Shown here piece after piece: positions 17,986 to 64,000 of a DNA stretch of 64,000 bases (the stretch's first letter is position 1; every line of letters starts with the position of its first letter). This DNA comes from Octopus vulgaris (Eukaryota). The position numbers and the translations under genes were made by a program. The notes below the pieces were generated by a model. It saw nothing but the letters and a program-made list of their open reading frames with translations. It was not told where the DNA came from and made no database searches. Where the stretch lies: assembly GCA_951406725.2 (NCBI GenBank), contig OX597814.1, positions 68,758,001 through 68,822,000 on the forward strand, given 5' to 3'.

Positions 17986-18857
17986 AAAAATAGATAGAAA
18001 GAAAGAAAGCAGGAAAGAAAAAAGAAAAGAGAAAATCGGGAGTGGAATCTTCTTTAATGGTCAAGTGACCTAAATTTGACTTGTTATGGTTGTAGCAGTA
18101 GTGGTAGAAACTGTTCTAAATAAATTCATGGGTAGCGACTGTTTGCGTGGGTATAATTGGATGTATATATTATATATATCTGATTCTGAGGAAAGCAAAA
18201 GCTGGGTATGTATTCAAAAGCCGCCAGCAAAACGTCAACCATTTGATGACCTCAAACTTTATGGTAAAGATGAATCCCTAGTCAGCTCCCTCGTTGATAC
18301 GGTGTATACTTTCAGTACTGATATCAAAATGGAGTTCGGACTGAGAAAGTGTGGTGTGTTAGTCTTGAAGAGAGGCAAAATCAAATGTATGGGCATACTA
18401 TCGATACCTGCGGGGGAGGTTATGAAGCAGATAGGAGATAGCCCGTCTCTCCTATCTGCTTCATAACCTCCCCCGCAGGTATCGATAGTATGCCCATACA
18501 TTTGATTTTGCCTCTTTTCAAGACTAACACACCACACTTTCTCAGTCCGAACTCCATTTTGATATCAGCACTGAAAGTATACACCGTATCAACGACGGAG
18601 CTGACTAGGGATTCATCTTTACCATAAAGTTTGAGGTCATCAAATGGTTGACGTTTCATTACCAGATGAAAGGATGTAGCAAGGAAGTTGGGCGTGATTG
18701 ACCCTACTTAATCTCTGTTGTCATTCCAAAATGTTGGCATAGTTTCCAGCGTATATAGGTCCCAACTCTATCATGTATAATACATTATAGCAATGAAACA
18801 AAACTCTGTTCACATGCCAATAATTTAATAACAACATTTCTAGCTTTTGTGTATATA

Positions 18858-20269: not shown

Positions 20270-21305
20270 TTTCCAAGCTGACATATCATATCTGTGAACT
20301 TTTATTTCTTCCTTATCGCATGCCTTGTTGTCACCTGGGCATGCTATATCTATGATCCAGCATAGTTTGTTTTCTTTCTCAATTAAGACTATGTCCGGAT
20401 TCCAATTCTCTATCTCATGGTCGCACTGAATCATAAAATCCCATAGGATTTTTGCATTTCTATTTTCGACGATACCTTCAGGTTTGTGGTCGTACCAATT
20501 TGTTGCTCTGTCAAGTCCATACTTGTTGCAGAGTGTCCAATGGACAAGCCTGGCTATATTGCCGTGGCATCTCTTATATTTCTTCTGGGCTAGTGGCGTA
20601 CATTGGCTGATAATATTCCATACGGTTTCACCGTTTTGTCCTCAGATTCTCCACTTATCACTTTCTGCTTGTTGTCTATTCTGTATTTTATGTAGTTTGT
20701 TCTTAGTGCTTGCTCTTAGACAGCACACATTTAATGTCGACTTAAGGATCAGTCTCAGTCTGCGCAAGTACTCCACCTTAAAGTTTTTTTTCATTTCTTT
20801 CTCCATCAATTTATCCATTTCCAAAATCCCCATGTACTTATAGCCCGTCTCTCCTATCTGCTTCATAACCTCCCCCGCAGGTATCGATAGTATGCCCATA
20901 CATTTGATTTTGCCTCTCTTCAAGACTAACACACCACACTTTCTCAGTCCCAACTCCATTTTGATATCAGCACTGAAAGTATACACCGTATCAACGAGGG
21001 AGCTGACTAGGGATTCATCTTTACCATAAAGTTTGAGGTCATCAAATGGTTGACGTTTTGCTGGCGGCTTTTGAATACATACCCAGCTTTTGCTTTCCTC
21101 AGAATCAGTGTTAGTGGTATCAAGTAGAGTGCAATGATCAATGGGGACAGACAATCACCTTGGAAGATGCCCCTCCTAATTTCTACTGTCCCTAAACTTC
21201 TTCCGTATGCTGTCAGGTCCGTCCTCCAATTCGCCACACATTTTCCAAGCAATCGCTCAATATTCGATGCAATACGAAATAGGTTCATACACTCCATAAT
21301 CCAAT
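20270..21305 (-). mobile_element. R4/Dong-like LINE RT-to-RLE region, 5'-truncated at a (TAA)n tract
   Basis: RRGIFQGDCLSPL, NHL..DDLKLYGK, MELGLRKC, YKYMGILE, CRICEDKTVKPYG/RHGNIARLVHW-like region, ILWDFMIQCDHEIENWNPDIVL..IIDIACPGD. Confidence 0.85.
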
Positions 21306-28591: not shown

Positions 28592-29178
28592 CAAAATAGG
28601 CAACAAGGATATCCAGAGGTAATGTAGTACGATCGTTTCAAGCAACTCCATTTAATTGAACAATGCAATCATTACATCAATTTAAATGCAAAGCAATCCT
28701 CAGCTGCATAAAGACATAGAATTTGATTAAATTAAAAGAGATGGACACATTACTAAAATTTTACCTAAAATCCCCAAGAAGGTAAGGAGATAGACAAAGA
28801 ACGTGCTGTCTTCACTTCAGCTTAGAAGCTACTAAGGTATCAGGAAGAAAGACTTGATACAGATTTTGCTTGTCACTGTTTTATGGGGTCAGTTTTAATT
28901 TATAGACTAGCTTATCAAATCTTTGGCCAAAAGAACAAGTATACCTTAGTAACTTCTAAGCTGAAGTGAAGACAGCATGTTTTTTGTCTATCTCCTTACC
29001 TTCTTGGAGATTTTAGGTAAAATTATAATAATGTGTCCATCTCTTTTAATTTAATTAAATTCTATGTCTTTATGCAGCTGAGGATTGATCTGGATTTAAA
29101 CTGATGTAATGATTTCATTGTTCAATTAAATGAACGATCGCACTGCATTACCTCTGGATATCCTTGTTGCTTATTTTG
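28592..29178. repeat. Long inverted repeat / foldback element (~245-bp arms, ~100-bp spacer)
   Basis: 28592-28840 is the reverse complement of 28940-29178, with scattered mismatches and one ~12-bp indel. Confidence 0.9.
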
Positions 29179-31801: not shown

Positions 31802-32356
31802 GCCCTGATGCAGTACCAGGCAGTGGCTCTCATGGCTTCTGATCTTAACTGATTGGAAGTGTTATCATGTACATTGTTTTGTCTTGGTATAAAAGATGGG
31901 CTACAGCAAATATTCTGCTCAATACCACAGATTTGCTTGTCAGTTGTTTGACCTTAACCAGTTGAGCATGTCCCTTAGTGGCTGACGATATGTGCATCTC
32001 TGATCACGAGCAGAAGTAGTGGGGGAGCATCATAGCCATGTGTTGAGAAGGATTCTTTGGGGTTTGAATAATTCACCTCTGGAAACATGGGTGTTTCGTT
32101 CAACGTCCTTAAACAACCCTTATTCAGGGACCTTTTGAGCGGGATGGGTTACTCGATCTGAAGAAAATTCTAACTGGGCTCCACCTGCAAGGTCATGTGC
32201 TGTTTATCTTGATATGAGATCACTATGTCGCGCACATATGGTTGTGATGCATGTGCCTGGTATACCCTTATCAGACGGGTAGTCATGATGGGTATACTGG
32301 GCTTCGTATATTTTACCCCAGTGTCACTTTGATGGCATGCTCTGCTCGCTCACTCA
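31800..32356 (+). mobile_element. Non-coding (TAA)n-targeted retroposon
   Basis: Flanked by (AAT)n; highly similar to 47078-47562. Confidence 0.8.
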
Positions 32357-32410
32357 ATAATAATAATAATAATGCTGATGATGATGATGATGATAATGAT
32401 GATGGTGATG

Positions 32411-32469
<59 letters not shown>

Positions 32470-33990
32470 TATCAATGTGCGAATGTGTTTGTAGGTGTCT
32501 GAGTGTTTGTGGTTGTGTGTGTGCGCGCGCACGTGTTTTGAAATACCTGTCTCGTTTACGTATATATGATGAATAGTCCCAGGAGTGTTCACCTTTAGTT
32601 TATTATTGGTATATATTACTCTACTCTATACGAATGAATGGAAAAATCGAATGAAACAGAATTTGAAAGTGGGATCAAGGTGGAAGAAAATAAGTAAAAT
32701 ACTGAATGTGGACCGACATCCTCTTACATTAATTTAGTGCATTTCTAGAATTCTTAAGTGAAACGCTGTCTTGATGAAGAGTATGTATTTCTGTTCTTCC
32801 CACTATGTATTGCGAACACTAACTTAATCTTTTGAATCAGTACCTCTATATTCCTGGTCCGTATTTTACAGGTACAAAGGGCAAATAAACATTTATTGGG
32901 ACTTGAAGTGAGAAAGTAGAAGGAGTCTAAATGAATGTTTTTCACCCTCATCTCATGTTAATGATTTATAAATTATTTATTTGTATTAATTGTACATATT
33001 TTAAACAAGCTAAAGACGGAATGGCTAGCTATAGCTAGCTAGACAGACATACAGACAGACAGATAGGTAGTTTCAGGGACCAGTGAGTATTAATTTGTTC
33101 AAGCCATTTGCAATTTTCCTTTCTGTGCAAAGCAATACATATCACACACGTATACTTGCCAATATACTAAAACATTTGACGGAGATAAACAAACATAAAA
33201 ATGAATCGGAACAAGAGACCATGAAATTTAATGACATCGAATTTAGGAAAAATACATACACACGCGCACGCATGCCCACGCACACACAGATACATAAATA
33301 TATATATGCACACAAACATGAATTGTGTGTGTGCATATGTGTGTGTGTGCGTGTGTTACTAGTATATGTGTATGAGTACTTTTATTTTTAATAATTTAAA
33401 GTTTTCCTGTAAGAAAGGATCTGGTTTCTAACAAGGATACAAATTTGTATTGTTGGAAAGCAGGTAGCAAAAATAACGTTACATTTAAACTTGAGAAAGT
33501 CTTGCATATTTTTATTGCCACTTACGGACTGCGTTTCTAACGTGGTTGTTAGCTGGCTGATTTCTTTTTTCTGAAATCCCTAGCTTTTCCAACATCGTTG
33601 CAGTCCAACGACTGAAGCAAGAAAAAAGAATAATATACATACAGTCATACATACATACATACATACATACATACATACATACATACATACATACATACAC
33701 ATACATACATACACACACACATACACAAATACATACATACATACATACATACGTAAATACATACATACATACACTTTATATATATATATATATACAAGAT
33801 AAGAAAATGGAGAAATACAACTAAATCAAATATCAATTATCAGATAATATTCAATCACATACTTTATTAAACCACCACATAAGAGACTGTAGGGTTAAAC
33901 ATAAAAAAAGCAGAACAAATCAGTGTACATAAATGAGAGAGTATAAAAAAGAGAATATAAATATAAGTAAATATAAATATAAGTATAGAT

Positions 33991-34124
33991 TACATCTTAC
34001 AGCTGTTTCGGCCATGTAGATAAGTATGTCTCATTTTTACCAATATTAGCCTTTTATGGTAGGTCAATATATGGATATAAATGAGACATTTACAAAAGTA
34101 TCACAAGGCTTCTTCGGAGATATA
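33991..34124 (-). ncRNA. Type I hammerhead ribozyme motif, long stem II (sense to the PLE)
   Basis: TATATCT-CCGAAGA-A-GCC[~95-nt hairpin]GGC-C-GAAAC-AGCT-GTA/AGATGTA; palindromic stem III ACAGCTGT; U4C core variant. Confidence 0.7.
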
Positions 34125-36001
34125 CATATACATATGAGTGCATATACTCACACTCCTATACATATAAAAATATACATATACATAATAATGTTACTAAATA
34201 ATATAAATTAGTAAACATATATATGTTCCACATTCAATGTTTCAGTTTTTCAACTTAATATTGTGATAATAAACATACACATATTAGTACCTAGATGCAA
34301 ATATACATAGTCAATAGTACATTATGTTACTTCCTACTAATTTCCAAAGTGTCGTTAAAGTTAACATCATTATCGTTGTCAATACCATTAATGCTACCAT
34401 CATTATCATTCATAATATTATTAATATCGCTTACATTAGGATCCAAAGTGGCACATATGTATGTCCGGGTTCCATTTAGTAATTTTCCTTATGACATAAA
34501 TACACTATTGGATTTGAGTTTAAATTATCATTGTCTTCCTCATGGTTGGTCCGTTGAGAGCCGCCCCCACACCGCACAAGAAAAACATCCACATCCACAT
34601 CCAGCCCTAAACCCACACGTCCACATAAAAACCCACAGAAACATGCACACACACATGAGTAAACCCCGACACATCGCTACACAATCACTAGATTGCAGAG
34701 TGTATGTCTGTCATCGCATGGCTTATAGGCAAATCAGTACAGGCCGCAGTGTCTATGTACTAACACACACACTCACACGCACATCCGCATAGATATTAAT
34801 ACAATCTCATATACTGTATCAGGGAACATTCGCACACACATATATACATATTTAAATATACGTCTGCGCACTCATACGTACAAATAAAACCTATACTTAT
34901 ATCCACCCATGAATAAATATTTGCATATACATATATACATATCCAAATACGCACCTGCGTACTCATATGTATAAGAAAAACATACATCAGTACATCCACC
35001 CACGAACATACCTATACATACAAAAATATACATACGTTCACATACACATTTTCACACACCTCGAAACCTCAACCCACTTCCACTAAATCATAAATTAAAA
35101 ATATATGTCTGCCCATCCAGAGACGTATATATATATATACACAAAAAGTAAACAGAAGCTACTATTAACTTAGATATAAGTTCATTAATTATAAATTAAA
35201 TTAAATTAATTATAAGTTAGTAAGTGCCAAATAAACAAAAATAAATAATTAAATAAATAAATATATATATATATATATATATTCATGTATAGATAAATAG
35301 ATAAATAAAATGGAATACAAATTAAGAAGAGCACAAAGATAAACCTAATATAGTAAATATAAGTGGATACACCGAAGTGCATCCACATGCACATACATGA
35401 GCATGCACGCCCTCGCACGGACACGCGAATTCATGGCCGGGCCCACACACACACGTCCCTCCCGCACGCACGATCACCAAGATGCACACCAGACGACGCG
35501 TACAAGTACACGCGAATGTCCGCAAGCGTAGCGCGCGAGAGTGCACACGTTGATGCACATGCGCAGACGCGCTCGCGCATGCGTGCGCGGGCGCACAAAC
35601 TCCGGTGCAGCGCCACCCGAGCCCATGCTTGTGCAGCAGAAATACAACAACCCCCAACAAACCAACCGTAAAAAAAAAACCTTATATGCTCTTCGGGATA
35701 AACAACTTATACTAATTATAGACTCTCACATATTACATATTGGTATAGCAAAACTCAAACTGGTGCCCTAAGATATGATGCGCTTATACACCCTACACAG
35801 ATAAAAGACTCCGTGGGGTTCCGAATATCATGCATATATCAAAATAACTATATATTTTTGTATATTTTTCAGTCGGGACACAAACAATCAATATAGAACA
35901 CATACATGGAGACACAAAGTTATAAATTATAAATTGTAAGGACAAATAGTACTGTCTTATATAGAGGAATGCTAAAAGATTACTGGTAGAAGAATTAGAT
36001 G

Positions 36002-37212
36002 TTATTTAAATCTAGAGAAAGTGTACGCCAATTTGTGAAGGCAAAAAAAACTCCGCTCATTAATGCTGTTAATACTGGGTTGGCCGGCTTTGATGATGAA
36101 GAAAATTTCATTGATACATAAAGAGCATTTTTTATTTCTACTATTGTATACAGGTGCAGATGTTAGTATTTCCCAATCTAATTTAAAATCTATGTTTTTA
36201 CTCTTGAGTTCCCAGATATACGTACTTAACCCCGTAGAGTTCATCCTATTTTTATTTTTAAAAGTATATCTAAGATAGTTTAGCCGTTGTTTTATACTAT
36301 TTTTAGTCGCACCAATGTACACCCTGCTATTGTATTGTGTATTTACAGTGCATTGGTAAACCACCTCTCTCCTCAGGCATTTATTACCAAACACACATTG
36401 ATTCTTGCTTCTGCAAGTGCAGATTGAGGAGATTTAACCCTGGCAGAGATCCCCGTAGCCCTATTCCTGTTGATAATATTGCACTTATTTTCACTACTAC
36501 CCATGTTTATCTTTCTATCTTTATAGAAGCAATCTAATTTCTTGTTGTTGAAGGAGGAGATGATGGTGGCTAGATTATTCGTGATACTATATCCTATTCT
36601 AATAGTTCTATTGTTAATTATTTGGCTAAATTTATTCTTACCCTTAGTAAATAGTCTATATATTACTTTATGTATTGTTCTGACTATATCCGTTTTAATC
36701 TGCATTGCATATGGTATTATTAGCCATAGTGTATCGTCATCACTATGTGGATTACTCCTCAAATTGTTATTTATGGGGAAAACCCTATTATTCTTCCATC
36801 CCATATGTTTTCTACTCTTAGTATTGTCAATATGATGCCTAGAATTCCCCTTTAGATTGGTTTTATTAGTGACTTTATTGTTATTCGTATTCTTATTATT
36901 ATTGTTGCTTAGATGAACTTCACTATTGCCATATATATTATCAATGTTACTATGCCTATTGTTGATATCCCTACCATCATTATTTTGCGCCAAGTTATTT
37001 AGACCAATGTTGACAAGTCTAAGATTATTAAAACTAGTATTAATGTCATATGTATTTTTATATAGTATATTTTTCTTTGTCCTACAATTGTTATTGTCCC
37101 TTCGGAAATTCGTGTTATTCGTGTTGTTCTTAATAGTTCCACCTGTGTTCGAAGGATCATTATTGGGTATATACCAAATTTTATTTTTGTAGCCTGCCTT
37201 CTGCAATGCCGG
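36002..37212 (-). pseudogene. PLE ORF C-terminal part (thumb end, Asn-rich linker, Cys motif, GIY-YIG); frameshifted near 36420-36500
   Basis: ALQKAGYKNKIWY; NNRTIRIGYSITNNLATII; CTCRSKNQCVFGNKCL; VVYQC..VYIGATKNSIKQR; CSLCINE; CLH. Collinear with the ORF at 55482-57622. Confidence 0.85.
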
Positions 37213-37721
37213 GGTTTTCATGTGGACGTGTGGGTTTAGGGTTGGATGTGGATGTGGATGTTTTTCTTGTGCGGTGTGGGGGCGGCTCTCAACGGACCAA
37301 CCATGAGGAAGACAATGATAATTTAAATTCAAATCCAATAGTGCATTTATGTCATAAGGAAAATTACTAAATGGAACCCGGACATACATATGTGCCACTC
37401 TGGATCCTAATGTAAGCGATATTAATAATATTATGAATGATAATGATGGTAGCATTAATGGTATTGACAACGATAATGATGTTAACTTTAATGACACTTT
37501 GGAAATTAGTAGGAAGTAATATAATGTACTATTGACTATGTATATTTGCATCTAGGTACTAATATGTGTATGTTTATTATCACAATATTAAGTTGAAAAA
37601 CTGAAACATTGAATGTGGAACATATATATGTTTACTAATTTATATTATTTAGTAACATTATTATGTATATGTATATTTTTATATGTATAGGAGTGTGAGT
37701 ATATGCACTCATATGTATATG

Positions 37722-37854
37722 TATATCTCCGAAGAAGCCTTGTGATACTTTTGTAAATGTCTCATTTATATCCATATATTGACCTACCATAAAAGGCTAA
37801 TATTGGTAAAATGAGACATACTTATCTACATGGCCGAAACAGCTGTAAGATGTA
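37722..37854 (+). ncRNA. Type I hammerhead ribozyme motif, long stem II (inverted pLTR copy)
   Basis: Stem I 37722-37728/37848-37854, core CCGAAGA 37729-37735, GAAAC 37836-37840, predicted cleavage after GTA at 37847. Confidence 0.7.
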
Positions 37855-38270
37855 ATCTATACTTATATTTATATGTACTTATATTTATATTCTCTTTTTT
37901 ATATATATTCTACTTATTATAAAACTTTATTCTTTTATGTACACTTTTTATGTACATTCCTTTATGTACACTGATTTGTTCTGCTTTTTTATGTTTAACC
38001 CGACAGTCTCTTATGTGGTGGGTTAATAAAGTATGTGATTGAGTATTATCTGATAATTGATATTTGATTTAAATGTATTTCTCCATTTTCTTATCTTGTA
38101 TTAGTAATTTGTGGTAAATCATTTTACCTTTGCCCATATAATACAGTAAATGAATTGATTGCATCGCAATCCTTAACATTTATGTATTAACTTTGTTGGG
38201 TACTTCACTAGCAGTATGTTGGATATATGTTATCCCATGGAGGGTTGCATTTACAACCCCTATCTCAATT

Positions 38271-38315: not shown

Positions 38316-38540
38316 CAAATAAGAAAATGGAGAAACAAATGTTACATTATTTATTCATTTTACAAATGAGAACATCAAAAGCAAACAAAATATTATATAA
38401 ATCAATAAGTAATATAATAATACAAATACATATTTTAAAAGTCACGTTATAAATTATTGTAATTCATAAACTACTTCTTACAGCTGTTTCAGCCTATGGT
38501 CAAAAGTTAATCCAACTTATATTGCCTATAGATGTTAATA
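38313..38540 (-). mobile_element. Short 3' end of a related PLE with only the 3' half of a hammerhead
   Basis: Terminus TACAA.TAAGAAAATGGAGAAA shared with 33793; minus strand GGCT-GAAAC-AGCT-GTA-AGAAGT at ~38472-38495; no CUGANGA half found. Confidence 0.65.
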
Positions 38541-47031: not shown

Positions 47032-47079
<48 letters not shown>

Positions 47080-48020
47080 TGTTTTGTCTTGGTATAAAAG
47101 ATGGGCTACAGCAAACATTCTGCTCAATACCACAGATTTACTTGTCAGTTGTTTGACCTTAACCAGTTGAGCATGTCCCTTAGTGGCTGACGATATGTGC
47201 ATCTCTGATCACGAGCAGAAGTAGTGGGGGAGCATCATAGCCATGTGCTGAGAGGGATTCTTTGGGGTTTGAATAATTCACCTCTGGAAACATGGGTGGT
47301 TCTTTCAACATCCTTAAACAACCATTATTCAGGGACCTTTTGAGCGGGATGGGCTACTCCACCTGAAGAAATTTCTAACTGGGCTCCACCTGCAAGGTCA
47401 TGTGCTGTTTATCTTGATATGAGATCACCATGTCACGCACATATGGTTGTGATGCATGTGCCTGGTGTACCCTTATCAGACGGGTAGTCATGATGGGTAT
47501 ATTGGGCTTCGTATATTTTACCCCAGTGTCACTTTGATGGCATGAACTGCTCTCTCACTCAATAATAATAATAATTCTTTCTACTAGAGGCACAAGGCCT
47601 GAAATTTGGGAGGCGGGGACTAGTCGATTACATCAACTCCAGTTTTTCATTGGTTCTAAATTTATCGACCTCGAAAGGATGAAAGGCAAAGTCGACTTCG
47701 GTGGAATTTGAACTCAGAACGTAGCGACAGACGAAATACGACTAAGCATTTCGCCCATCCTGCTAACGAGTCTGCCAGCTCGCCGCCTTTATAATAATAA
47801 TAATAATAAGAAGAAGAAGAAGAAGAAGAAGAATCCTTTCTACTATAGATACAAGGCCTGAAATTTGGTGGGAGAGGAAAGATCGATTATTCGACCCAGT
47901 ATTTCACTGGTACTTAATTTATCGACCACGAAAGAATGAAAGGCAAAGTCGACCTCAGAACGTGGCGACAGGTGAAATATTTCGTTCGGCGTGTTATTGA
48001 TTCTGCCAGCTCGCTACCTT
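46535..48020 (-). mobile_element. Cluster of four co-oriented SINE copies separated by (TAA)n/(GAA)n, with a nested + strand (TAA)-tailed element at 47078-47562
   Basis: Repeated unit ATCCTTTCTACTA..GGCACAAGGCCTG...GTCGATTA...CTGCCAGCTC at ~46535-46737, 46813-47030, 47574-47790 and 47832-48020. Confidence 0.85.
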
Positions 48021-52269: not shown

Positions 52270-52341
<72 letters not shown>

Positions 52342-52366
52342 TTATATATATTTATTATATAGAAGG

Positions 52367-52417
52367 AGCTTCTACAGGACTAGTACTGTTTCATTCAAGA
52401 GAAATCTTCAGGAAGCT
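52367..52417 (-). ncRNA. Compact type I hammerhead ribozyme (PLE pLTR, 3'-most copy)
   Basis: Minus strand: AGCTTC-CTGAAGA-TTTCTCTTGAAT-GAAACAG-TACTAGTC-CTGTA/GAAGCT; 6-bp stem I, intact core, 4-bp stem III, GUA cleavage triplet. Confidence 0.8.
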
Positions 52418-53363
52418 ATTTAACAAGAATTGTATTAGCATTTATACATTTAGGCAGGTTTAAAGGAGTGGTGGTGGGGGACTTTTTGGGGGTAGGCATA
52501 GCGCAAAATATCATACTTGGGGGAGTGGTCAAGGAGTCAGTGGTAAGTTAGATGAAGGAATAGATAAATAAAAAAATAAAAAAATAAAAAAATATAAAAA
52601 AATAAAAAGTAAAAAATAAAAATAAAATAAAATAAAAATAATAAAATAAAATAAAAATAAAAAATAAAAAATATATATAAAAAAATATATATATAAAATA
52701 TATATATACAAAAATATATATATAAAAAAAAGGGGGATAGAGTTATAGGTAAATAAGGAGATTCTCACTTATACCTATACACACATGTATACGTATCTAC
52801 ACACACATACATACATACACATATATATACACACACATATACACACACACATATATATACATACATATACATACCTACACATACACACATACATACATAC
52901 AAATATACATATACATATATATATATACAATCCAATACAGGCCCATTCCCTAATTTTAATTTTATTATCTTCATTTATTACTTTTGTTATCTTTGATCGC
53001 TAGGGCTAAGAATCCTGGCAATGGCTGCAGTCCATTTGTCTGTCTACTAGAATGCAAGTACTCATTCCCGCACGCACACTCATTAGCACGTACATTCACC
53101 CATTCGTACACTCATACACATACACGTACGCACGCGTTATATTCATACATACAAACATCTACATACGTTCACGTATATACACATACGTACTCGTACCTAC
53201 AGATTCGTGTCTACACTTTAGGAGGCTAGACTATACATATACACCAATAAATATACATATATATATATATATATACCCGCATATACATACACACACACAC
53301 ATATATACTCCTACATACAGATACATACCTACATATATATACATATATATATATATATACATG

Positions 53364-53417
<54 letters not shown>

Positions 53418-53920
53418 CATACACATACACACATACATATACACACACATACATACACATATATATACATACACAAACATATATACACACATATATATAT
53501 ACATACACACATACACACATACATACGTATACATACATACATACATCCATACATCCATACTTACATGCATTTATACGCATACACACACCCATCTATATAT
53601 ATGCATATATATATATATATATATATATAACACACTCACACATACATATACAAATCCACGCACACACATACATACATACACGTATACGCATACACGCACA
53701 TACACATATACATGCGTACCCATACACGTGCACACACGCACGCGCATCCATATATATACACACACACACATATATATACACACGTGTGCAAGCATACATA
53801 CATACTCATACGCGCACACATACTTACAAATACATATATGCACACACTTACACACATATATATACATACACATATACATGCATACATACATATATGCATA
53901 CATACACACACGCACTCATA

Positions 53921-53970
<50 letters not shown>

Positions 53971-54049
53971 TATATATATATACACACACACATACATACA
54001 TAGATACACATACGCATACATACACATACACATACATACACACATATAT

Positions 54050-54092
<43 letters not shown>

Positions 54093-54297
54093 TACATATA
54101 TACACACATACATACATATACATACACACACACATACATATATACATATACACTGATACACATACCCATACATACACATGCATATACTTATATCACTACA
54201 TACTCACATATATAAACATATATACATATACACACATACATATATACATGTACATACACATACGTATGCATATATATACATATACATATATATACAC

Positions 54298-54330
<33 letters not shown>

Positions 54331-54578
54331 TATACATGTATACATACGCAAAAATGATACACATATATACACATACACACACACAGACAGATGCATATAC
54401 ATACATATATATATATAAACTACATATCTATATAAATACATACATAATACACATATACACACACATATATATACATTCATGCATATACATATACAAGTAT
54501 ACACATACATACACACACACGCGCACACATACATATACACACACACATATATACAAATACATACATACATACACACAT

Positions 54579-54609
<31 letters not shown>

Positions 54610-54983
54610 CATACACATACACGTACACATATACATATGTATATATATATCAACAAGGGAGGGTAAAGTTAATTAGTTATTAATCAATTTCATCAAGTGT
54701 TCAGTATGTAAAGGGACCATTATTATTTTGAGTAAACAATGTTAGAGGGAAAAAATTCTCTAAGTAGTGGAAGAGGCTAAAAAACTTTATTGGCTGCTAT
54801 TTCTAGAAAGTTTAGTATGTGGCAAAGTAATTTATTTTATTTTCCTAATCCCTAATTATATAATATTTTATACATACATACACATACATAAGCACATACA
54901 TTTACACATACATATGCATATACATATATACACATATACATACAAACACATATACACATATACACACACACACACATACAAGC

Positions 54984-55022
<39 letters not shown>

Positions 55023-55026
<4 letters not shown>

Positions 55027-55204
55027 TTATATAGAAGGAGCTTCTACAGGACTAGTACTGTTTCATTCAAGAGAAATCTTCAAGATTTCTCTTGAATGAA
55101 ACAGTACTAGTCCTGTAGAAGCTCCTTCTATATAATAAATTAATTTTACTCTGCTATGTATTGAGTACCTTACTTACTGTGGTTAACCCCGAATCAACCC
55201 GGGA

Positions 55205-55212
<8 letters not shown>
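55023..55212. mobile_element. Fold-back mini-insertion of the same PLE's terminus into its own pLTR (TA)n
   Basis: 55023-55081 equals 52351-52409; 55082-55212 is the reverse complement of ~57666-57795; absent from unit 2 (~60400-60430). Confidence 0.9.
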
Positions 55213-55240
<28 letters not shown>

Positions 55241-55481
55241 AATATATATACATATATATTTTTTTACATGCATACATACACACACACACACATAATACAT
55301 GCGTATATTCCTACTGTACCCATGCATTTCTATACAAATATACATACATACATACATACGATACACATATACAAGCGTGCACATATAATATGTGAAAGGT
55401 CTTAGGAGAAAAGGTAATCGGGGGTGCTAGGGGAACAGTGGGGTTGGGGGGGTTGTAGGGGGGGTTGTAGGGGGGTTGTCA

Positions 55482-57622
55482 TCAATCAGGTTGCCGGGTA
55501 GGTCTATAGTTCTTGTAGTTCGCATACTTCTTATGCATACAATTTGGGGAGTGTTCTGAAAATTTGTTAAGGAGAGGGCCTTTGGCGAACAAGATCTCTA
55601 GGCTCTCTGATATGCATAGGTCACAGCAGGTATGTCCTCCTGTGTACGAGCGCGCCTTCTGTAGTAGTTTCCACTTGGTCTTGAAGGGGATTGAGTTCCT
55701 TTTAAGGTACCAGATGTGGGCGGCGAGGGTAGTTTGGTTGGATTTATCCTGTCGCCGGAACGAGTGTGTATGTGCATACCAGCGGGTCTTAAAGCTGTTT
55801 GACGTCATTCCAATGTAGGATTTACTTTTATCGTCAAGGCCTGATCTTACCTCGCATTTATATACTAGGTCCCTCTTTAGGCAGTTGTTGTTGAGGGGGC
55901 AGGTGGTTTTATCATGGCAGTTGCAATTGCTATCGGACGTTGGATGGGCCCCGGAGAAAGTAGATATGTTAAGTTTTTTCACATTGTTGTTGGCTAGGTT
56001 CCTGGCTAGGTTGGGCGTGGTAGAGTAGGAGAGTCTAATAGTGTTCTTATTTAGGATAGTGTAGTACTTATGTTGGGTGGGGAAGTGTTTCTGTAGGAGA
56101 GTGAAAAAGATCTTAGCTACAGGTGTAGCGACCTCACGGTTGAAGGGGGGTTGTACCAGCTAATGTGTCTTCGTCTATTTTTCCTGGGTTGGCGTGGGGC
56201 TATACTAGTGTAGGTAATCTTATCTTTAAAACCACTGCGGGCCAGGGCCTCGTTGTAATAGGGGGCTGCGGCCTTAAAGATATCTTCCGTGGCGGACAGG
56301 CTAGAGATTCTAATTGAGACACTTTTTACTAGGTTATCTAATATATTTCTGGGGTGGTTGGAATTGATATCTATATATCTAAGGGATTCATTTGGTTTGT
56401 GGTACGGGTAATAAAGTGAGGTTTTTAAGTCGAGGGTGACATCTAGGAAGTTAGCCTTAGTTAAGTTGGATTCTAGGGTAATCCTAAGGCCTAAGTTTTT
56501 AAAGAAGGTGTGAAGATTTTTCCGGAACCCATCCGTGGTCCTGGGGTTTATATTGTGGAGGGCGAAAAGGCCGTCATCTCGGTAAAGACCACCGGAGAGG
56601 CCTGTGAATAGGGTTTTCAGCCTATGGAGGATGAAAAGGCCCACTAGGTCACTTATTTCAGCAGAGTCGTTAGCACCCATGCTGACGTCGAAGGGGGTCA
56701 CAGATTTTTTGTTGATCCAGTGGGATCCGTCATAGAAAAGAAAAGTCTTACGTGCGTGGAGGATCACATCTTGCTCTGCCTCGGTGATGGTGGAGGACCT
56801 CCTGGCGAAGTTAATCCCATCGATCAGCAAGCTCTCCGATATAGAGGCGTAGTAATCCTCGATATCCAGTTGTAGGAATCGGGTGTTGCTTTTATCTGGT
56901 AAATCCCGGAACCAAGTTATTGCCTCGGAGGTCCTATTCCAGAGTGGAAGGGGTGAAGCTTCACGCATTTTTGGTAAAATCCTGTCCAAGATCTTCTTGC
57001 TGATGGATCCGATGTCAGACTTGGTTGGGTTAATCAAACGGACCGACGGTTTATTTTCGAAATGGTCTTTGTGGTCTTTCAGGGTGAAGTGTGGGGACTT
57101 CACCCTCAGGGGTTCTGTTCGGTCGTCGATTTTAAGGGAGGTGGCAATCTCTTTCCCGGCCAAGTTGGTTTCAGTTAGCGCTACGTCGTCTACTTTCTTG
57201 TATTTAGCTGTGATGGCGTTATCGGCTAGTCTATTATAGGTATCCGGAGTCACCGCGTAAATATTTTTTGTCTTGTCCGAAGGGACATGGAGGTTCTGGG
57301 AGCTTTTCATTTTCGAAAGCTTCGCATTCAGTTCCGTTTGGAAAGGTAAGTTGACTCTCCTGAATTTGATGTTTTTTATCATGAGGAAGAGGTCTTCTTC
57401 AAACGGTTCAAGTAGGCTGTTGGTAGGAGGGGCCTTATTTGATTTGAAGCCGTACTTATCATTACTGGTAGATGCTACATCAGGGTTGTCGAAGAAGAAA
57501 GATCTCCATCGAATTCTTTTGATGAACTCATCAGTCCGTCTAATGAGGGCTTTTTGGTACTGTTTCCTTGGTGGGATAGTAATGTTCTTCAGGGAAGTGT
57601 CGAGGTCGATTCTTGTCAGCAT
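55482..57622 (-). CDS. PLE polyprotein, copy 1 (RT + GIY-YIG), ~713 aa if the single 1-nt frameshift at 56145-56150 is corrected
   Basis: SLKNITIP..FIKRIRWRSFFF N-terminus; RT LDIEDYYASI, VSMGANDS, LYRDDGL, FLDVTL; CNCHDKTTCPLNNNCL; LVYKC..SYIGMT..FKTRWYAH; CDLCISE; CMH. Confidence 0.9.
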
Positions 57623-57753
57623 TTTTCTTGGTGATGGTTATAAGGGCACTAGGGTGTGCTAAGATATGTAGGTCCCGGGTTGATTCGGGGTTAACCACAG
57701 TAAGTAAGGTACTCAATACATAGCAGAGTAAAATTAATTTATTATATAGAAGG

Positions 57754-57804
57754 AGCTTCTACAGGACTAGTACTGTTTCATTCAAGAGAAATCTTCAGGA
57801 AGCT
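57754..57804 (-). ncRNA. Compact type I hammerhead ribozyme (middle copy)
   Basis: Identical to 52367-52417; predicted cleavage ~137 nt upstream of the ATG at 57622. Confidence 0.8.
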
Positions 57805-58752
57805 ATTTAACAAGAATTGTATTAGCATTTATACATTTAGGCAGGTTTAAAGGAGTGGTGGTGGGGGACTTTTTGGGGGTAGGCATAGCGCAAAATATCA
57901 TACTTGGGGGAGTGGTCAAGGAGTCAGTGGTAAGTTAGATGAAGGAATAGATAAATAAAAAAATAAAAAAATAAAAAAATATAAAAAAATAAAAAGTAAA
58001 AAATAAAAATAAAATAAAATAAAAATAATAAAATAAAATAAAAATAAAAAATAAAAAATATATATAAAAAAATATATATATATAAAATATATATATACAA
58101 AAATATATATATAAAAAAAGGGGGGATAGAGTTATAGGTAAATAAGGAGATTCTCACTTATACCTATACACACATGTATACGTATCTACACACACATACA
58201 TACATACACATATATATACACACACATATACACACACACATATATATACATACATATACATACCTACACATACACACATACATACATACAAATATACATA
58301 TACATATATATATATACAATCCAATACAGGCCCATTCCCTAATTTTAATTTTATTATCTTCATTTATTACTTTTGTTATCTTTGATCGCTAGGGCTAAGA
58401 ATCCTGGCAATGGCTGCAGTCCATTTGTCTGTCTACTAGAAGGCAAGTACTCATTCCCGCACGCACACTCATTAGCACGTACATTCACCCATTCGTACAC
58501 TCATACACATACACGTACGCACGCGTTATATTCATACATACAAACATCTACATACGTTCACGTATATACACATACGTACTCGTACCTACAGATTCGTGTC
58601 TACACTTTAGGAGGCTAGACTATACATATACACCAATAAATATACATATATATATATATATATATACCCGCATATACATACACACACACACATATATACT
58701 CCTACATACAGATACATACCTACATATATATACATATATATATATATACATG

Positions 58753-58806
<54 letters not shown>

Positions 58807-58995
58807 TACATACACATACACACATACATATACACACACATACATACACATATATATACATACACAAACATATATACACACATATATATATACATACACA
58901 CATACACACATACATACGTATACATACATACATACATCCATACATCCATACTTACATGCATTTATACGCATACACACACCCATCTATATATATGC

Positions 58996-59027
<32 letters not shown>

Positions 59028-59306
59028 TCACACATACATATACAAATCCACGCACACACATACATACATACACGTATACGCATACACGCACATACACATA
59101 TACATGCGTACCCATACACGTGCACACACGCACGCGCATCCATATATATACACACACACACATATATATACACACGTGTGCAAGCATACATACATACTCA
59201 TACGCGCACACATACTTACAAATACATATATGCACACACTTACACACATATATATACATACACATATACATGCATACATACATATATGCATACATACACA
59301 CACGCA

Positions 59307-59349
<43 letters not shown>

Positions 59350-59437
59350 CACACAATATATATATATATACACACACACATACATACATAGATACACATA
59401 CGCATACATACACATACACATACATACACACATATAT

Positions 59438-59482
<45 letters not shown>

Positions 59483-59970
59483 TACATATATACACACATA
59501 CATACATATACATACACACACACATACATATATACATATACACTGATACACATACCCATACATACACATGCATATACTTATATCACTACATACTCACATA
59601 TATAAACATATATACATATACACACATACATATATACATGTACATACACATACGTATGCATATATATACATATACATATATATACACATATACACATATA
59701 TATATATATATATACACACACATATACATGTATACATACGCAAAAATGATACACATATATACACATACACACACACAGACAGATGCATATACATACATAT
59801 ATATATATAAACTACATATCTATATAAATACATACATAATACACATATACACACACATATATATACATTCATGCATATACATATACAAGTATACACATAC
59901 ATACACACACACGCGCACACATACATATACACACACACATATATACAAATACATACATACATACACACAT

Positions 59971-60011
<41 letters not shown>

Positions 60012-60381
60012 CACATACACGTACACATATACCTATGTATATATATATCAACAAGGGAGGGTAAAGTTAATTAGTTATTAATCAATTTCATCAAGTGTTC
60101 AGTATGTAAAGGGACCATTATTATTTTGAGTAAACAATGTTAGAGGGAAAAAATTCTCTAAGTAGTGGAAGAGGCTAAAAAACTTTATTGGCTGCTATTT
60201 CTAGAAAGTTTAGTATGTGGCAAAGTAATTTATTTTATTTTCCTAATCCCTAATTATATAATATTTTATACATACATACACATACATAAGCACATACATT
60301 TACACATACATATGCATATACATATATACACATATACATACAAACACATATACACATATACACACACACACACATACAAGC

Positions 60382-60432
<51 letters not shown>

Positions 60433-60674
60433 AATATATATACATATATATTTTTTTACATGCATACATACACACACACACACATAATACATGCGTATAT
60501 TCCTACTGTACCCATGCATTTCTATACAAATATACATACATACATACATACGATACACATATACAAGCGTGCACATATAATATGTGAAAGGTCTTAGGAG
60601 AAAAGGTAATCGGGGGTGCTAGGGGAACAGTGGGGTTGGGGGGGGTTGTAGGGGGGGTTGTAGGGGGGTTGTCA

Positions 60675-62815
60675 TCAATCAGGTTGCCGGGTAGGTCTAT
60701 AGTTCTTGTAGTTCGCATACTTCTTATGCATACAATTTGGGGAGTGTTCTGAAAATTTGTTAAGGAGAGGGCCTTTGGCGAACAAGATCTCTAGGCTCTC
60801 TGATATGCATAGGTCACAGCAGGTATGTCCTCCTGTGTACGAGCGCGCCTTCTGTAGTAGTTTCCACTTGGTCTTGAAGGGGATTGAGTTCCTTTTAAGG
60901 TACCAGATGTGGGCGGCGAGGGTAGTTTGGTTGGATTTATCCTGTCGCCGGAACGAGTGTGTATGTGCATACCAGCGGGTCTTAAAGCTGTTTGACGTCA
61001 TTCCAATGTAGGATTTACTTTTATCGTCAAGGCCTGATCTTACCTCGCATTTATATACTAGGTCCCTCTTTAGGCAGTTGTTGTTGAGGGGGCAGGTGGT
61101 TTTATCATGGCAGTTGCAATTGCTATCGGACGTTGGATGGGCCCCGGAGAAAGTAGATATGTTAAGTTTTTTCACATTGTTGTTGGCTAGGTTCCTGGCT
61201 AGGTTGGGCGTGGTAGAGTAGGAGAGTCTAATAGTGTTCTTATTTAGGATAGTGTAGTACTTATGTTGGGTGGGGAAGTGTTTCTGTAGGAGAGTGAAAA
61301 AGATCTTAGCTACAGGTGTAGCGACCTCACGGTTGAAGGGGGGTTGTACCAGCTAATGTGTCTTCGTCTATTTTTCCTGGGTTGGCGTGGGGCTATACTA
61401 GTGTAGGTAATCTTATCTTTAAAACCACTGCGGGCCAGGGCCTCGTTGTAATAGGGGGCTGCGGCCTTAAAGATATCTTCCGTGGCGGACAGGCTAGAGA
61501 TTCTAATTGAGACACTTTTTACTAGGTTATCTAATATATTTCTGGGGTGGTTGGAATTGATATCTATATATCTAAGGGATTCATTTGGTTTGTGGTACGG
61601 GTAATAAAGTGAGGTTTTTAAGTCGAGGGTGACATCTAGGAAGTTAGCCTTAGTTAAGTTGGATTCTAGGGTAATCCTAAGGCCTAAGTTTTTAAAGAAG
61701 GTGTGAAGATTTTTCCGGAACCCATCCGTGGTCCTGGGGTTTATATTGTGGAGGGCGAAAAGGCCGTCATCTCGGTAAAGACCACCGGAGAGGCCTGTGA
61801 ATAGGGTTTTCAGCCTATGGAGGATGAAAAGGCCCACTAGGTCACTTATTTCAGCAGAGTCGTTAGCACCCATGCTGACGTCGAAGGGGGTCACAGATTT
61901 TTTGTTGATCCAGTGGGATCCGTCATAGAAAAGAAAAGTCTTACGTGCGTGGAGGATCACATCTTGCTCTGCCTCGGTGATGGTGGAGGACCTCCTGGCG
62001 AAGTTAATCCCATCGATCAGCAAGCTCTCCGATATAGAGGCGTAGTAATCCTCGATATCCAGTTGTAGGAATCGGGTGTTGCTTTTATCTGGTAAATCCC
62101 GGAACCAAGTTATTGCCTCGGAGGTCCTATTCCAGAGTGGAAGGGGTGAAGCTTCACGCATTTTTGGTAAAATCCTGTCCAAGATCTTCTTGCTGATGGA
62201 TCCGATGTCAGACTTGGTTGGGTTAATCAAACGGACCGACGGTTTATTTTCGAAATGGTCTTTGTGGTCTTTCAGGGTGAAGTGTGGGGACTTCACCCTC
62301 AGGGGTTCTGTTCGGTCGTCGATTTTAAGGGAGGTGGCAATCTCTTTCCCGGCCAAGTTGGTTTCAGTTAGCGCTACGTCGTCTACTTTCTTGTATTTAG
62401 CTGTGATGGCGTTATCGGCTAGTCTATTATAGGTATCCGGAGTCACCGCGTAAATATTTTTTGTCTTGTCCGAAGGGACATGGAGGTTCTGGGAGCTTTT
62501 CATTTTCGAAAGCTTCGCATTCAGTTCCGCTTGGAAAGGTAAGTTGACTCTCCTGAATTTGATGTTTTTTATCATGAGGAAGAGGTCTTCTTCAAACGGT
62601 TCAAGTAGGCTGTTGGTAGGAGGGGCCTTATTTGATTTGAAGCCGTACTTATCATTACTGGTAGATGCTACATCAGGGTTGTCGAAGAAGAAAGATCTCC
62701 ATCGAATTCTTTTGATGAACTCATCAGTCCGTCTAATGAGGGCTTTTTGGTACTGTTTCCTTGGTGGGATAGTAATGTTCTTCAGGGAAGTGTCGAGGTC
62801 GATTCTTGTCAGCAT
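60675..62815 (-). CDS. PLE polyprotein, copy 2 (RT + GIY-YIG), same 1-nt frameshift at 61338-61343
   Basis: Protein identical to copy 1 except FQAEL vs FQTEL in the ORF track. Confidence 0.9.
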
Positions 62816-62946
62816 TTTTCTTGGTGATGGTTATAAGGGCACTAGGGTGTGCTAAGATATGTAGGTCCCGAGTTGATTCGGGGTTAACCACAGTAAGTAA
62901 GGTACTCAATACATAGCAGAGTAAAATTAATTTATTATATAGAAGG

Positions 62947-62997
62947 AGCTTCTACAGGACTAGTACTGTTTCATTCAAGAGAAATCTTCAGGAAGCT
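62947..62997 (-). ncRNA. Compact type I hammerhead ribozyme (5'-most copy)
   Basis: Identical to 52367-52417. Confidence 0.8.
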
Positions 62998-63754
62998 ATT
63001 TAACAAGAATTGTATTAGCATTTATACATTTAGGCAGGTTTAAAGGAGTGGTGGTGGGGGACTTTTTGGGGGTAGGCATAGCGCAAAATATCATACTTGG
63101 GGGAGTGGTCAAGGAGTCAGTGGTAAGTTAGATGAAGGAATAGATAAATAAAAAAATAAAAAAATAAAAAAATATAAAAAAATAAAAAGTAAAAAATAAA
63201 AATAAAATAAAATAAAAATAATAAAATAAAATAAAAATAAAAAATAAAAAATATATATAAAAAAATATATATATATAAAATATATATATACAAAAATATA
63301 TATATAAAAAAAAGGGGGGATAGAGTTATAGGTAAATAAGGAGATTCTCACTTATACCTATACACACATGTATACGTATCTACACACACATACATACATA
63401 CACATATATATACACACACATATACACACACACATATATATACATACATATACATACCTACACATACACACATACATACATACAAATATACATATACATA
63501 TATATATATACAATCCAATACAGGCCCATTCCCTAATTTTAATTTTATTATCTTCATTTATTACTTTTGTTATCTTTGATCGCTAGGGCTAAGAATCCTG
63601 GCAATGGCTGCAGTCCATTTGTCTGTCTACTAGAAGGCAAGTACTCATTCCCGCACGCACACTCATTAGCACGTACATTCACCCATTCGTACACTCATAC
63701 ACATACACGTACGCACGCGTTATATTCATACATACAAACATCTACATACGTTCA

Positions 63755-64000
<246 letters not shown>

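What the first reader, a model, noticed from the sequence alone, without database searches (positions are those of the whole stretch)
52351..63754. Very young tandem Penelope array punctuated by one hammerhead per 5193-nt unit: a possible genomic imprint of a circular or multimeric RNA intermediate
Seen: ~2.15 head-to-tail units on the - strand with three identical hammerhead motifs (52367, 57754, 62947), one amino-acid difference between the two ORFs, 5' truncation in mid-pLTR and (TA)n on both flanks. Known: PLEs form pLTR-ORF-pLTR partial tandems and carry type I hammerheads. Inference: cleavage at successive ribozymes would release an exact 5193-nt monomer (137-nt leader, RT-GIY-YIG ORF, ~2.9 kb 3' region) that could circularise. 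More than two rounds of reverse transcription around it would give exactly this array. The genomic end lies 22 nt beyond the cleavage site and finishes in TATATAATAAA, which suggests priming by microhomology with the (TA)n target on an uncleaved or re-ligated RNA.
Basis: partly seen in the sequence, partly recalled or inferred. Interest (0 to 1): 0.8.

Follow-up and report, generated by a model that had tools for sequence, protein, structure and literature searches.

The report
Tandem Hydra-clade Penelope retrotransposon array
A young jumping gene of a known Penelope-like group sits here as two head-to-tail copies, each ending in a ribozyme-like motif, and was likely copied from RNA that the ribozyme had not cut, which is ordinary for its kind and no proof of an RNA circle.

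Summary
The array is real: 11,404 nt on the minus strand, 2.16 units, three identical type I hammerhead motifs, (TA)n on both sides. It is a Hydra-clade Penelope-like element (RWR, DKT, CxCX5C, C-terminal GIY-YIG), with a unit twice the usual length. Two points were missed. The units are 5193 and 5387 nt: the second holds a nested 206-nt inverted-end insertion with two more broken hammerheads. Both ORFs carry the same one-base frameshift between RT and endonuclease, whereas family contigs in four public runs mostly read through. Family 3' ends recur 22 and 96 nt past the cleavage site, with none shown at it, and a downstream hairpin is predicted to compete with ribozyme folding. Head-to-tail junctions are common in relatives (40 of 91 loci). 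The circle model was published in 2014 for all PLEs, and a 2024 in vitro study found uncleaved RNA to be the main template. Best reading: internal priming on uncut read-through RNA. A circle, DNA duplication through the pLTRs, or two alleles joined in assembly give the same geometry and are not excluded.

The parts
63755..64000 (.). (TA)n target flank at the 5' side of the array; runs to the window end
62931..63754 (-). 5'-truncated upstream copy = pLTR (824 nt: last 802 nt of the 3' region, hammerhead, 22 nt); junction blurred by microhomology
62947..62997 (-). type I hammerhead motif 3; predicted cleavage between 62953 and 62952
   Evidence: layout as in the Hydra table
62857..62930 (-). 74-nt 'tail' between the two recurrent 3' termini (+22 and +96), within the 137-nt leader
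   Evidence: loose ends into (TA)n at 62930 and 62857; nested insertion
61344..62815 (-). unit A, RT part of the ORF (RWR, DKT, YRDD); the frame stops at 61310 after the frameshift
61338..61343 (-). C6 run at WYNPP: one-base frameshift in unit A (family contigs mostly have one more base)
60675..61343 (-). unit A, linker (CxCX5C) and C-terminal GIY-YIG endonuclease, in another frame
57760..60674 (-). unit A 3' region, 2915 nt, 66% purine-pyrimidine microsatellite; likely captured host DNA
57754..57804 (-). type I hammerhead motif 2
55482..57622 (-). unit B ORF with the same frameshift at 56145-56150
55082..55213 (+). nested insertion, inverted arm (132 nt): runs from the hammerhead core to the +96 terminus
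55023..55081 (-). nested insertion, direct arm (59 nt): from core G5 to the +22 terminus; lacks the 5' strand of stem I
52373..55481 (-). unit B 3' region, including the nested insertion
52367..52417 (-). type I hammerhead motif 1
52351..52372 (-). 22 nt past the cleavage site; 3' end of the array, AT-rich, joined to (TA)n
52270..52350 (.). (TA)n target flank at the 3' side

Best explanation
This is a 2.16-unit head-to-tail insertion of a Hydra-clade Penelope-like retrotransposon into a (TA)n tract, likely made by target-primed reverse transcription that started inside an RNA left uncut at its hammerhead. Shown: the anatomy, the clade motifs, and two fixed 3' ends 22 and 96 nt past the cleavage site, both joined to (TA)n. 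Inferred: the GIY-YIG endonuclease nicks (TA)n; the freed 3' end pairs with a short UA-rich stretch of the RNA at +22 or +96; RT copies a linear read-through transcript of a tandem donor (or hops between transcripts through their overlapping ends) and stopped after 11.2 kb. A short inverted copy of the same family inserted later into a (TA)n run of unit B. The 2.9-kb 3' region is inferred to be host DNA captured between the ORF and a downstream hammerhead-bearing end. Ribozyme cleavage is predicted to be inefficient in long transcripts and is not needed.
For: Ends recur in other copies: contigs run into (TA)n at 62857 (32 in X11, 3 in X9, 1 in X8) and at 62926-62936 (12 in X11, 3 in X1, 1 in X8); none of the 24 rows shown lies at 62952/62953 (113 rows not shown). 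The nested insertion uses both ends. In relatives, 24 of 83 hammerhead calls have a (TA)5 run within 250 nt downstream, 17 of them at 31-63 nt and none closer than 31; no shuffle control was run. 40 of 91 related loci show a direct repeat at 2200-2847 nt spacing, i.e. head-to-tail junctions. Predicted stem I pairing falls from 0.95 (+6 nt) to 0.37 (+22) and 0.04 (+40); 1 of 300 shuffles is as low at +22. PMC11167929: internal initiation at two sites, hammerhead mutants still insert, multi-copy mRNA proposed. PMC4209133: minimal PLE hammerheads cleave poorly. PMC3846280: inverted pLTR with tail, nested insertion and captured 3' spacers. The two outer pLTR copies differ by 1 substitution, as expected for parts made at one time.
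Against: Nothing here separates a linear multimer from a circle. Both units share four substitutions (61970, 62010, 62182, 62197) and the frameshift where family contigs in all four runs mostly or only show another letter. This asks for one source unit or a uniform donor array and, if the frameshift is real, for protein supplied in trans. No donor locus was seen, as no whole genome is held. The folding occlusion is not beyond chance in longer contexts (19 of 300 shuffles at +40, 88 of 300 at +96). The in vitro work is on a Poseidon element, not on Hydra. Many of the 40 repeats in relatives are contig-end overlaps, which fit tandem DNA or circles alike and do not give the unit number.
Confidence: 0.58

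Rival explanations
1. Circle template: hammerhead cleavage releases a 5193-nt monomer that is ligated into a circle, and RT goes round it more than twice.
For: The geometry fits. Units A and B share four substitutions and a frameshift against the family pool, as one molecule copied twice would give. The outer pLTR copies are nearly identical. The isolated motif is predicted to fold (stem I 0.95) and to dimerise through its palindromic loop 3 (-29.4 versus 2 x -8.5 kcal/mol). Circles are shown for small hammerhead retrozymes (PMC7229834).
Against: The model was proposed without in vivo evidence. A search for Penelope-like + circular RNA + RNase R + hammerhead returned 1 paper, on small retrozymes. 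Cleavage was dispensable in vitro and no RNA-seq reads began or ended at the site in the anole element. Stem I is predicted to be outcompeted once 22-40 nt more are made. No end at the cleavage site among the rows shown.
Confidence: 0.14
2. DNA-level duplication: an ordinary one-ORF partial tandem inserted, gained the frameshift, and was doubled by unequal crossover between its 824-nt pLTRs.
For: Gives exactly pLTR-unit-unit. Explains a shared frameshift without action in trans.
Against: If the four shared substitutions had built up in place, the two outer pLTRs should differ at about 4 sites; 1 is seen (P about 0.09, a rough Poisson estimate). Head-to-tail junctions are common in the clade.
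Confidence: 0.15
3. Assembly artefact: two alleles of a one-ORF insertion were joined through the pLTR, and the frameshift is a homopolymer error.
For: Alleles would share private letters and differ slightly (3 of 3253). Homopolymer runs disagree among the copies (C6T8, C6T7, C5T8; C8 versus C7). The broken run would be the only run of 7 in the ORF.
Against: A pure copy of one sequence is excluded by the differences and by the structured 206-nt insertion, whose ends match family-wide ends. Contigs with the window's letters at 62010 and 62197 were not seen in any of the four runs, so the insertion may be rare, which makes two diverged alleles in one animal less likely.
Confidence: 0.12

Closest known systems
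Hydra clade of C-terminal EN+ Penelope-like elements (Craig et al. 2021, PMC8557442)
   Same: RT followed by GIY-YIG, about 710 aa in relatives; RW[KR], DKT, CxCX5C, CxxC and CxH; canonical type I hammerhead with the same core layout; (TA)n target. The RT is 44% identical to P0053, which by eye differs from Hydra-2_Amil at about 15 of about 400 residues shown.
   Different: Unit 5.2 kb versus 2.1-2.7 kb for the complete families in the paper's table and 2200-2847 nt in 40 related loci. Stop-to-hammerhead distance 2915 nt versus 102-549 nt in 26 of 27 cases. Both ORFs here are frameshifted.
PAc, Poseidon element of Anolis carolinensis (Frangieh et al. 2024, PMC11167929)
   Same: Tandem loci, AT-rich targets, two adjacent 3' termini downstream of the hammerhead that define a tail, template uncut at the ribozyme.
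   Different: Other clade. Its start sites lie inside the ORF; here both ends lie in the 137-nt leader, and the tail is 74 nt rather than the 30-40 bp usually given.
Adineta vaga Pen1 and Pen2a (Arkhipova et al. 2013, PMC3846280)
   Same: Inverted pLTR with tail, palindromic junction, insertion nested in another Penelope, 3' pLTR set off by a 0.9-1.5 kb captured spacer.
   Different: Other families; the spacer here is longer and mostly microsatellite.
Non-LTR retrozymes (PMC7229834; bioRxiv 10.64898/2026.07.22.740005)
   Same: Tandem units with one type I hammerhead each; PLE-related.
   Different: Non-coding, about 170-400 nt, with circles shown by experiment; this unit is coding, 5.2 kb, with no circle shown.

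Membership tests
Hydra-clade PLE | RT with C-terminal GIY-YIG endonuclease | tested here: met
   tblastn of 700-734-aa homologs covers RT then EN in order; alignment of the EN part
Hydra-clade PLE | RWK motif, and DKG changed to DKT | tested here: met
   RWR and DKT in the window; RW[KR] in 105 of 106 and DK[TS] in 106 of 106 homologs of 650 aa or more, DKG in 0
Hydra-clade PLE | CxCX5C linker; CxxC and CxH around the conserved E and N; no CCHH | tested here: met
   C76/C78/C84, C176/C179, E182, N195, C204/H206 invariant in the 13-row alignment A1
Hydra-clade PLE | canonical type I hammerhead near the 3' end | tested here: met
   core, stems I-III and cleavage triplet present, laid out as in File S2; activity untested
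Hydra-clade PLE | insertion into (TA)n | tested here: met
   array, nested copy and family contigs all end in (TA)n
Hydra-clade PLE | single uninterrupted ORF | tested here: inconclusive
   broken in both window copies; family contigs in 4 of 4 runs mostly carry the extra base; real change or assembly error not settled
Hydra-clade PLE | typical trait, not diagnostic: generally under 3 kb | tested here: not met
   unit 5193 nt because of the long 3' region
Hydra-clade PLE | placement in an RT tree with reference clades | not tested
   no tree built; reference sequences were seen only in the paper's supplement
Naiad/Chlamys PLE | N-terminal endonuclease; no canonical hammerhead | tested here: not met
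   EN is C-terminal and a hammerhead is present
Neptune / Nematis / Penelope-Poseidon PLE | DKG motif and CCHH in the endonuclease | tested here: not met
   DKT and the Hydra cysteine pattern instead (definitions)
Non-LTR retrozyme | small non-coding tandem unit | tested here: not met
   5.2-kb coding unit
Non-LTR retrozyme | accumulates as a circular RNA | not testable with these tools
   only contigs were served; they cannot show RNA ends or circles

The most novel reading that the evidence does not exclude
The two units are two passes of RT round one hammerhead-cut, religated 5.2-kb RNA circle, and the frameshift they share is a mark of that single molecule. This would be direct genomic evidence that an autonomous-type PLE retrotransposes through a circular RNA, with a hairpin just past the cleavage site switching the ribozyme off in the template.
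Probability: 0.14. Interest if true: 0.72.

Novelty: new member of a known kind. Interest (0 to 1): 0.3.

Why it matters
How PLEs make head-to-tail arrays, and what their hammerheads do, is still open. This locus does not settle it, but it is a usable test case: a young, high-copy, probably transcribed Hydra family with two exactly mapped 3' ends (+22, +96) and a predicted ribozyme-blocking hairpin, so priming and cleavage can be assayed outside the one clade studied in vitro. The doubled unit length suggests capture of host DNA between ORF and hammerhead. If the circle reading were true, it would confirm a model proposed in 2014 for which my searches found no direct test.

Tried and rejected
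Rfam at gathering score: 0 matches in the window. Pfam: no family at cut-off for RT, EN or the 36373-37551 ORF. No whole genome held, so no donor search and no genome-wide map of ends from the source individual. No RNA holder on record was listed; the 'RNA?' runs are guesses, so expression is not shown. Contigs cannot show RNA ends; tables 5 and 6 were empty. Depth peaks over the hammerhead and falls toward the ORF 5' end, but summed contig depth is no copy number and was not used as evidence. L022 (2427-nt period, 2 mismatches) and L041 (2405-nt period) look like two-ORF tandems, but their mismatch pattern fits an assembler unrolling a loop, so they were not counted as proof of unit number. 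Programmed frameshifting at the C run rejected: family contigs mostly hold the in-frame form and relatives have single ORFs. Naiad, my first guess from memory, rejected on domain order. General ribozyme occlusion in relatives (56 of 80 calls under 0.2 at +40) had no control and was not used. The unique islands of the 3' region matched nothing else in the window. Three look-ups of earlier findings returned nothing. The host species was not determined.
Full report
OBSERVATION. The array runs from 63754 to 52351 on the minus strand (11,404 nt) between two (TA)n tracts. Three identical 51-nt motifs begin at 52367, 57754 and 62947. They hold the type I hammerhead core, a 6-bp stem I, a 3-bp stem II and a stem III with a palindromic loop. 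Rfam does not call them and their folding energy equals that of shuffles, but the layout matches the Hydra motifs in File S2 of PMC8557442. From cleavage site to cleavage site the upstream unit A is 5193 nt and the downstream unit B is 5387 nt.

TWO THINGS MISSED. First, unit B carries a 206-nt insertion in a (TA)n run: a 132-nt inverted arm (55082-55213) joined at a palindromic point in the hammerhead core to a 59-nt direct arm (55023-55081). The direct arm ends at +22, like the array; the inverted arm ends at +96. Both lack the 5' part of the ribozyme. Second, neither unit has an RT-endonuclease ORF. Homologs of about 705 aa align to one frame up to WYNPP and to another frame after it, in both units. 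Contigs of the family carry one more base in this C run: 144.2 of 153.2 depth in X1, 29.1 of 29.1 in X8, 35558 of 61363 in X11, 2938.6 of 3158.2 in X9. The break is thus particular to this locus or an assembly error; homopolymer runs also disagree among the three copies elsewhere, so I leave this at about even odds.

WHAT IT IS. A search with the RT part gave 1439 hits among 8000 candidates scored, best 52% identity. [quoted passage not shown] These are the features that define the Hydra clade, with (TA)n targets and canonical hammerheads. P0053 is 44% identical to the RT and by eye about 96% identical to Hydra-2_Amil over the stretch shown. No tree was built. The unusual trait is length. Among 91 related loci, the hammerhead lies 102-549 nt past the stop in 26 of 27 cases with a long ORF, and 40 loci show a direct repeat at 2200-2847 nt spacing. 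Here the distance is 2915 nt, 66% of it microsatellite. Capture of host DNA as a 3' spacer is described for rotifer Pen1; I infer the same.

WHERE COPIES END. On the 2481-nt stretch laid (60660-63140; 4 of the 24 runs listed), contigs leave the element for (TA)n at 62857 (32 in X11, 3 in X9, 1 in X8) and at 62926-62936 (12 in X11, 3 in X1, 1 in X8). These are the +96 and +22 ends of the nested insertion. None of the 24 rows shown lies at the cleavage site; 113 rows were not shown. One X1 contig turns back on itself at 62997, a second inversion at the hammerhead's 5' edge. In relatives, 24 of 83 hammerhead calls have a (TA)5 run within 250 nt downstream, 17 at 31-63 nt and none closer (the same measure gives 31 for this array; no control). 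So templates across the clade reach past the cleavage site. Two ends 74 nt apart are the PLE 'tail', which Frangieh et al. tie to two internal RT start sites. Both ends here carry a few bases that match (TA)n, which fits priming by microhomology; that step is inferred.

IS THE RIBOZYME LIKELY TO CUT? Predicted pairing of stem I is 0.95 with 6 downstream nt, 0.37 with 22 and 0.03-0.04 with 40-110, because a hairpin right after the site takes the 3' strand. Against shuffled downstream letters this is unusual at +22 (1 of 300), weak at +40 (19 of 300) and not unusual at +96 (88 of 300). The isolated motif is predicted to dimerise. Published minimal PLE hammerheads cleave poorly; in the anole element cleavage needed protein and was not needed for insertion.

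HOW THE SECOND UNIT AROSE. A and B differ by 3 substitutions in 3253 non-microsatellite nt: young, and not a plain copy. They share four substitutions (61970, 62010, 62182, 62197; two synonymous) where the laid contigs mostly or only show another letter, plus the frameshift (40 of 66 rows were shown). At 62530 the pool agrees with B. The best run holds only 0.85 of the sampled words, so the window may come from another population and 'private' is relative to these runs. The shared letters ask for one source unit or a uniform donor array. They fit a circle, DNA duplication, two alleles, or template switching equally. If the four changes had built up in place before a DNA duplication, the outer pLTRs should differ at about 4 sites; they differ at 1 (P about 0.09), mild support for all parts being made at once. 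pLTR-unit-unit is what every model gives, so the geometry is not diagnostic. I rank read-through or template switching on uncut RNA first (0.58) because every PLE partial tandem already needs a template that spans the site, such junctions are common in the clade, and the one biochemical study points that way. Then DNA duplication (0.15), circle (0.14), joined alleles (0.12).

COMPARISON WITH WHAT IS KNOWN. The circle model is stated as a tentative proposal for all PLEs in PMC4209133. Inverted pLTR with tail, nested insertion and captured spacer are in PMC3846280. Partial tandems and the pLTR promoter are in PMC2377424. What I saw of each paper: PMC11167929, parts 1-2 of 4 (main text and start of methods); PMC8557442, abstract, passages, sections 11 and 12, supplement part 2 of 59 and search hits; PMC4209133, part 2 of 4 and passages; PMC3846280, section 6 and passages; PMC2377424 and PMC7229834, passages; bioRxiv 10.64898/2026.07.22.740005, part 1 of 5, supplements not seen. 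Five searches showed no report of a circular RNA of an autonomous PLE and none of a Hydra family with a 5-kb unit; the library lacks most subscription papers, and unread supplement parts may bear on Hydra tails.

VERDICT. A real, young tandem of a new Hydra-clade family with a long 3' region and two sharply mapped ends. It works like other PLEs; it is not evidence for a circle. Interest 0.3.

Noticed in passing
window 33792-38101 (-): A second, unrelated PLE-like insertion: remnant of a Hydra-type linker and endonuclease at about 36005-36820 with no RT hit, an 890-nt inverted arm (37212-38101 versus 33792-34634, 92.5%), a hammerhead-like motif with a changed core base and a long extended stem II at about 33990-34120, ending in (TA)n; a further related end near 38320-38500.
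   Followed up: partly
window 62901-62983 as laid: Most contig depth over the hammerhead carries another letter in loop 3 (62964) in three of four runs, and several contigs continue upstream of 62997 with unrelated sequence: possibly an abundant short hammerhead-only family or subfamilies with other 3' spacers.
   Followed up: no
window 18230-18656 and 28592-29178: Long palindromes (97% and 81%); parts of the first recur at 20840-21108.
   Followed up: no
window 31873-32370 and 47078-47575: 498-nt direct repeat, 96% identical, 15 kb apart.
   Followed up: no
L079-L091: Hydra-type elements with hammerheads and (TA)n lie in contigs filed under bacterial MAGs; likely eukaryotic host DNA in the bins. 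L081, L089 and L090 hold clusters of 4-6 hammerhead calls.
   Followed up: partly
L007, L079, L083, L085: Nested or inverted arrangements in relatives: an opposite-strand element of another family next to the ORF (L007) and long inverted 5'-truncated arms (L079, L083, L085).
   Followed up: no
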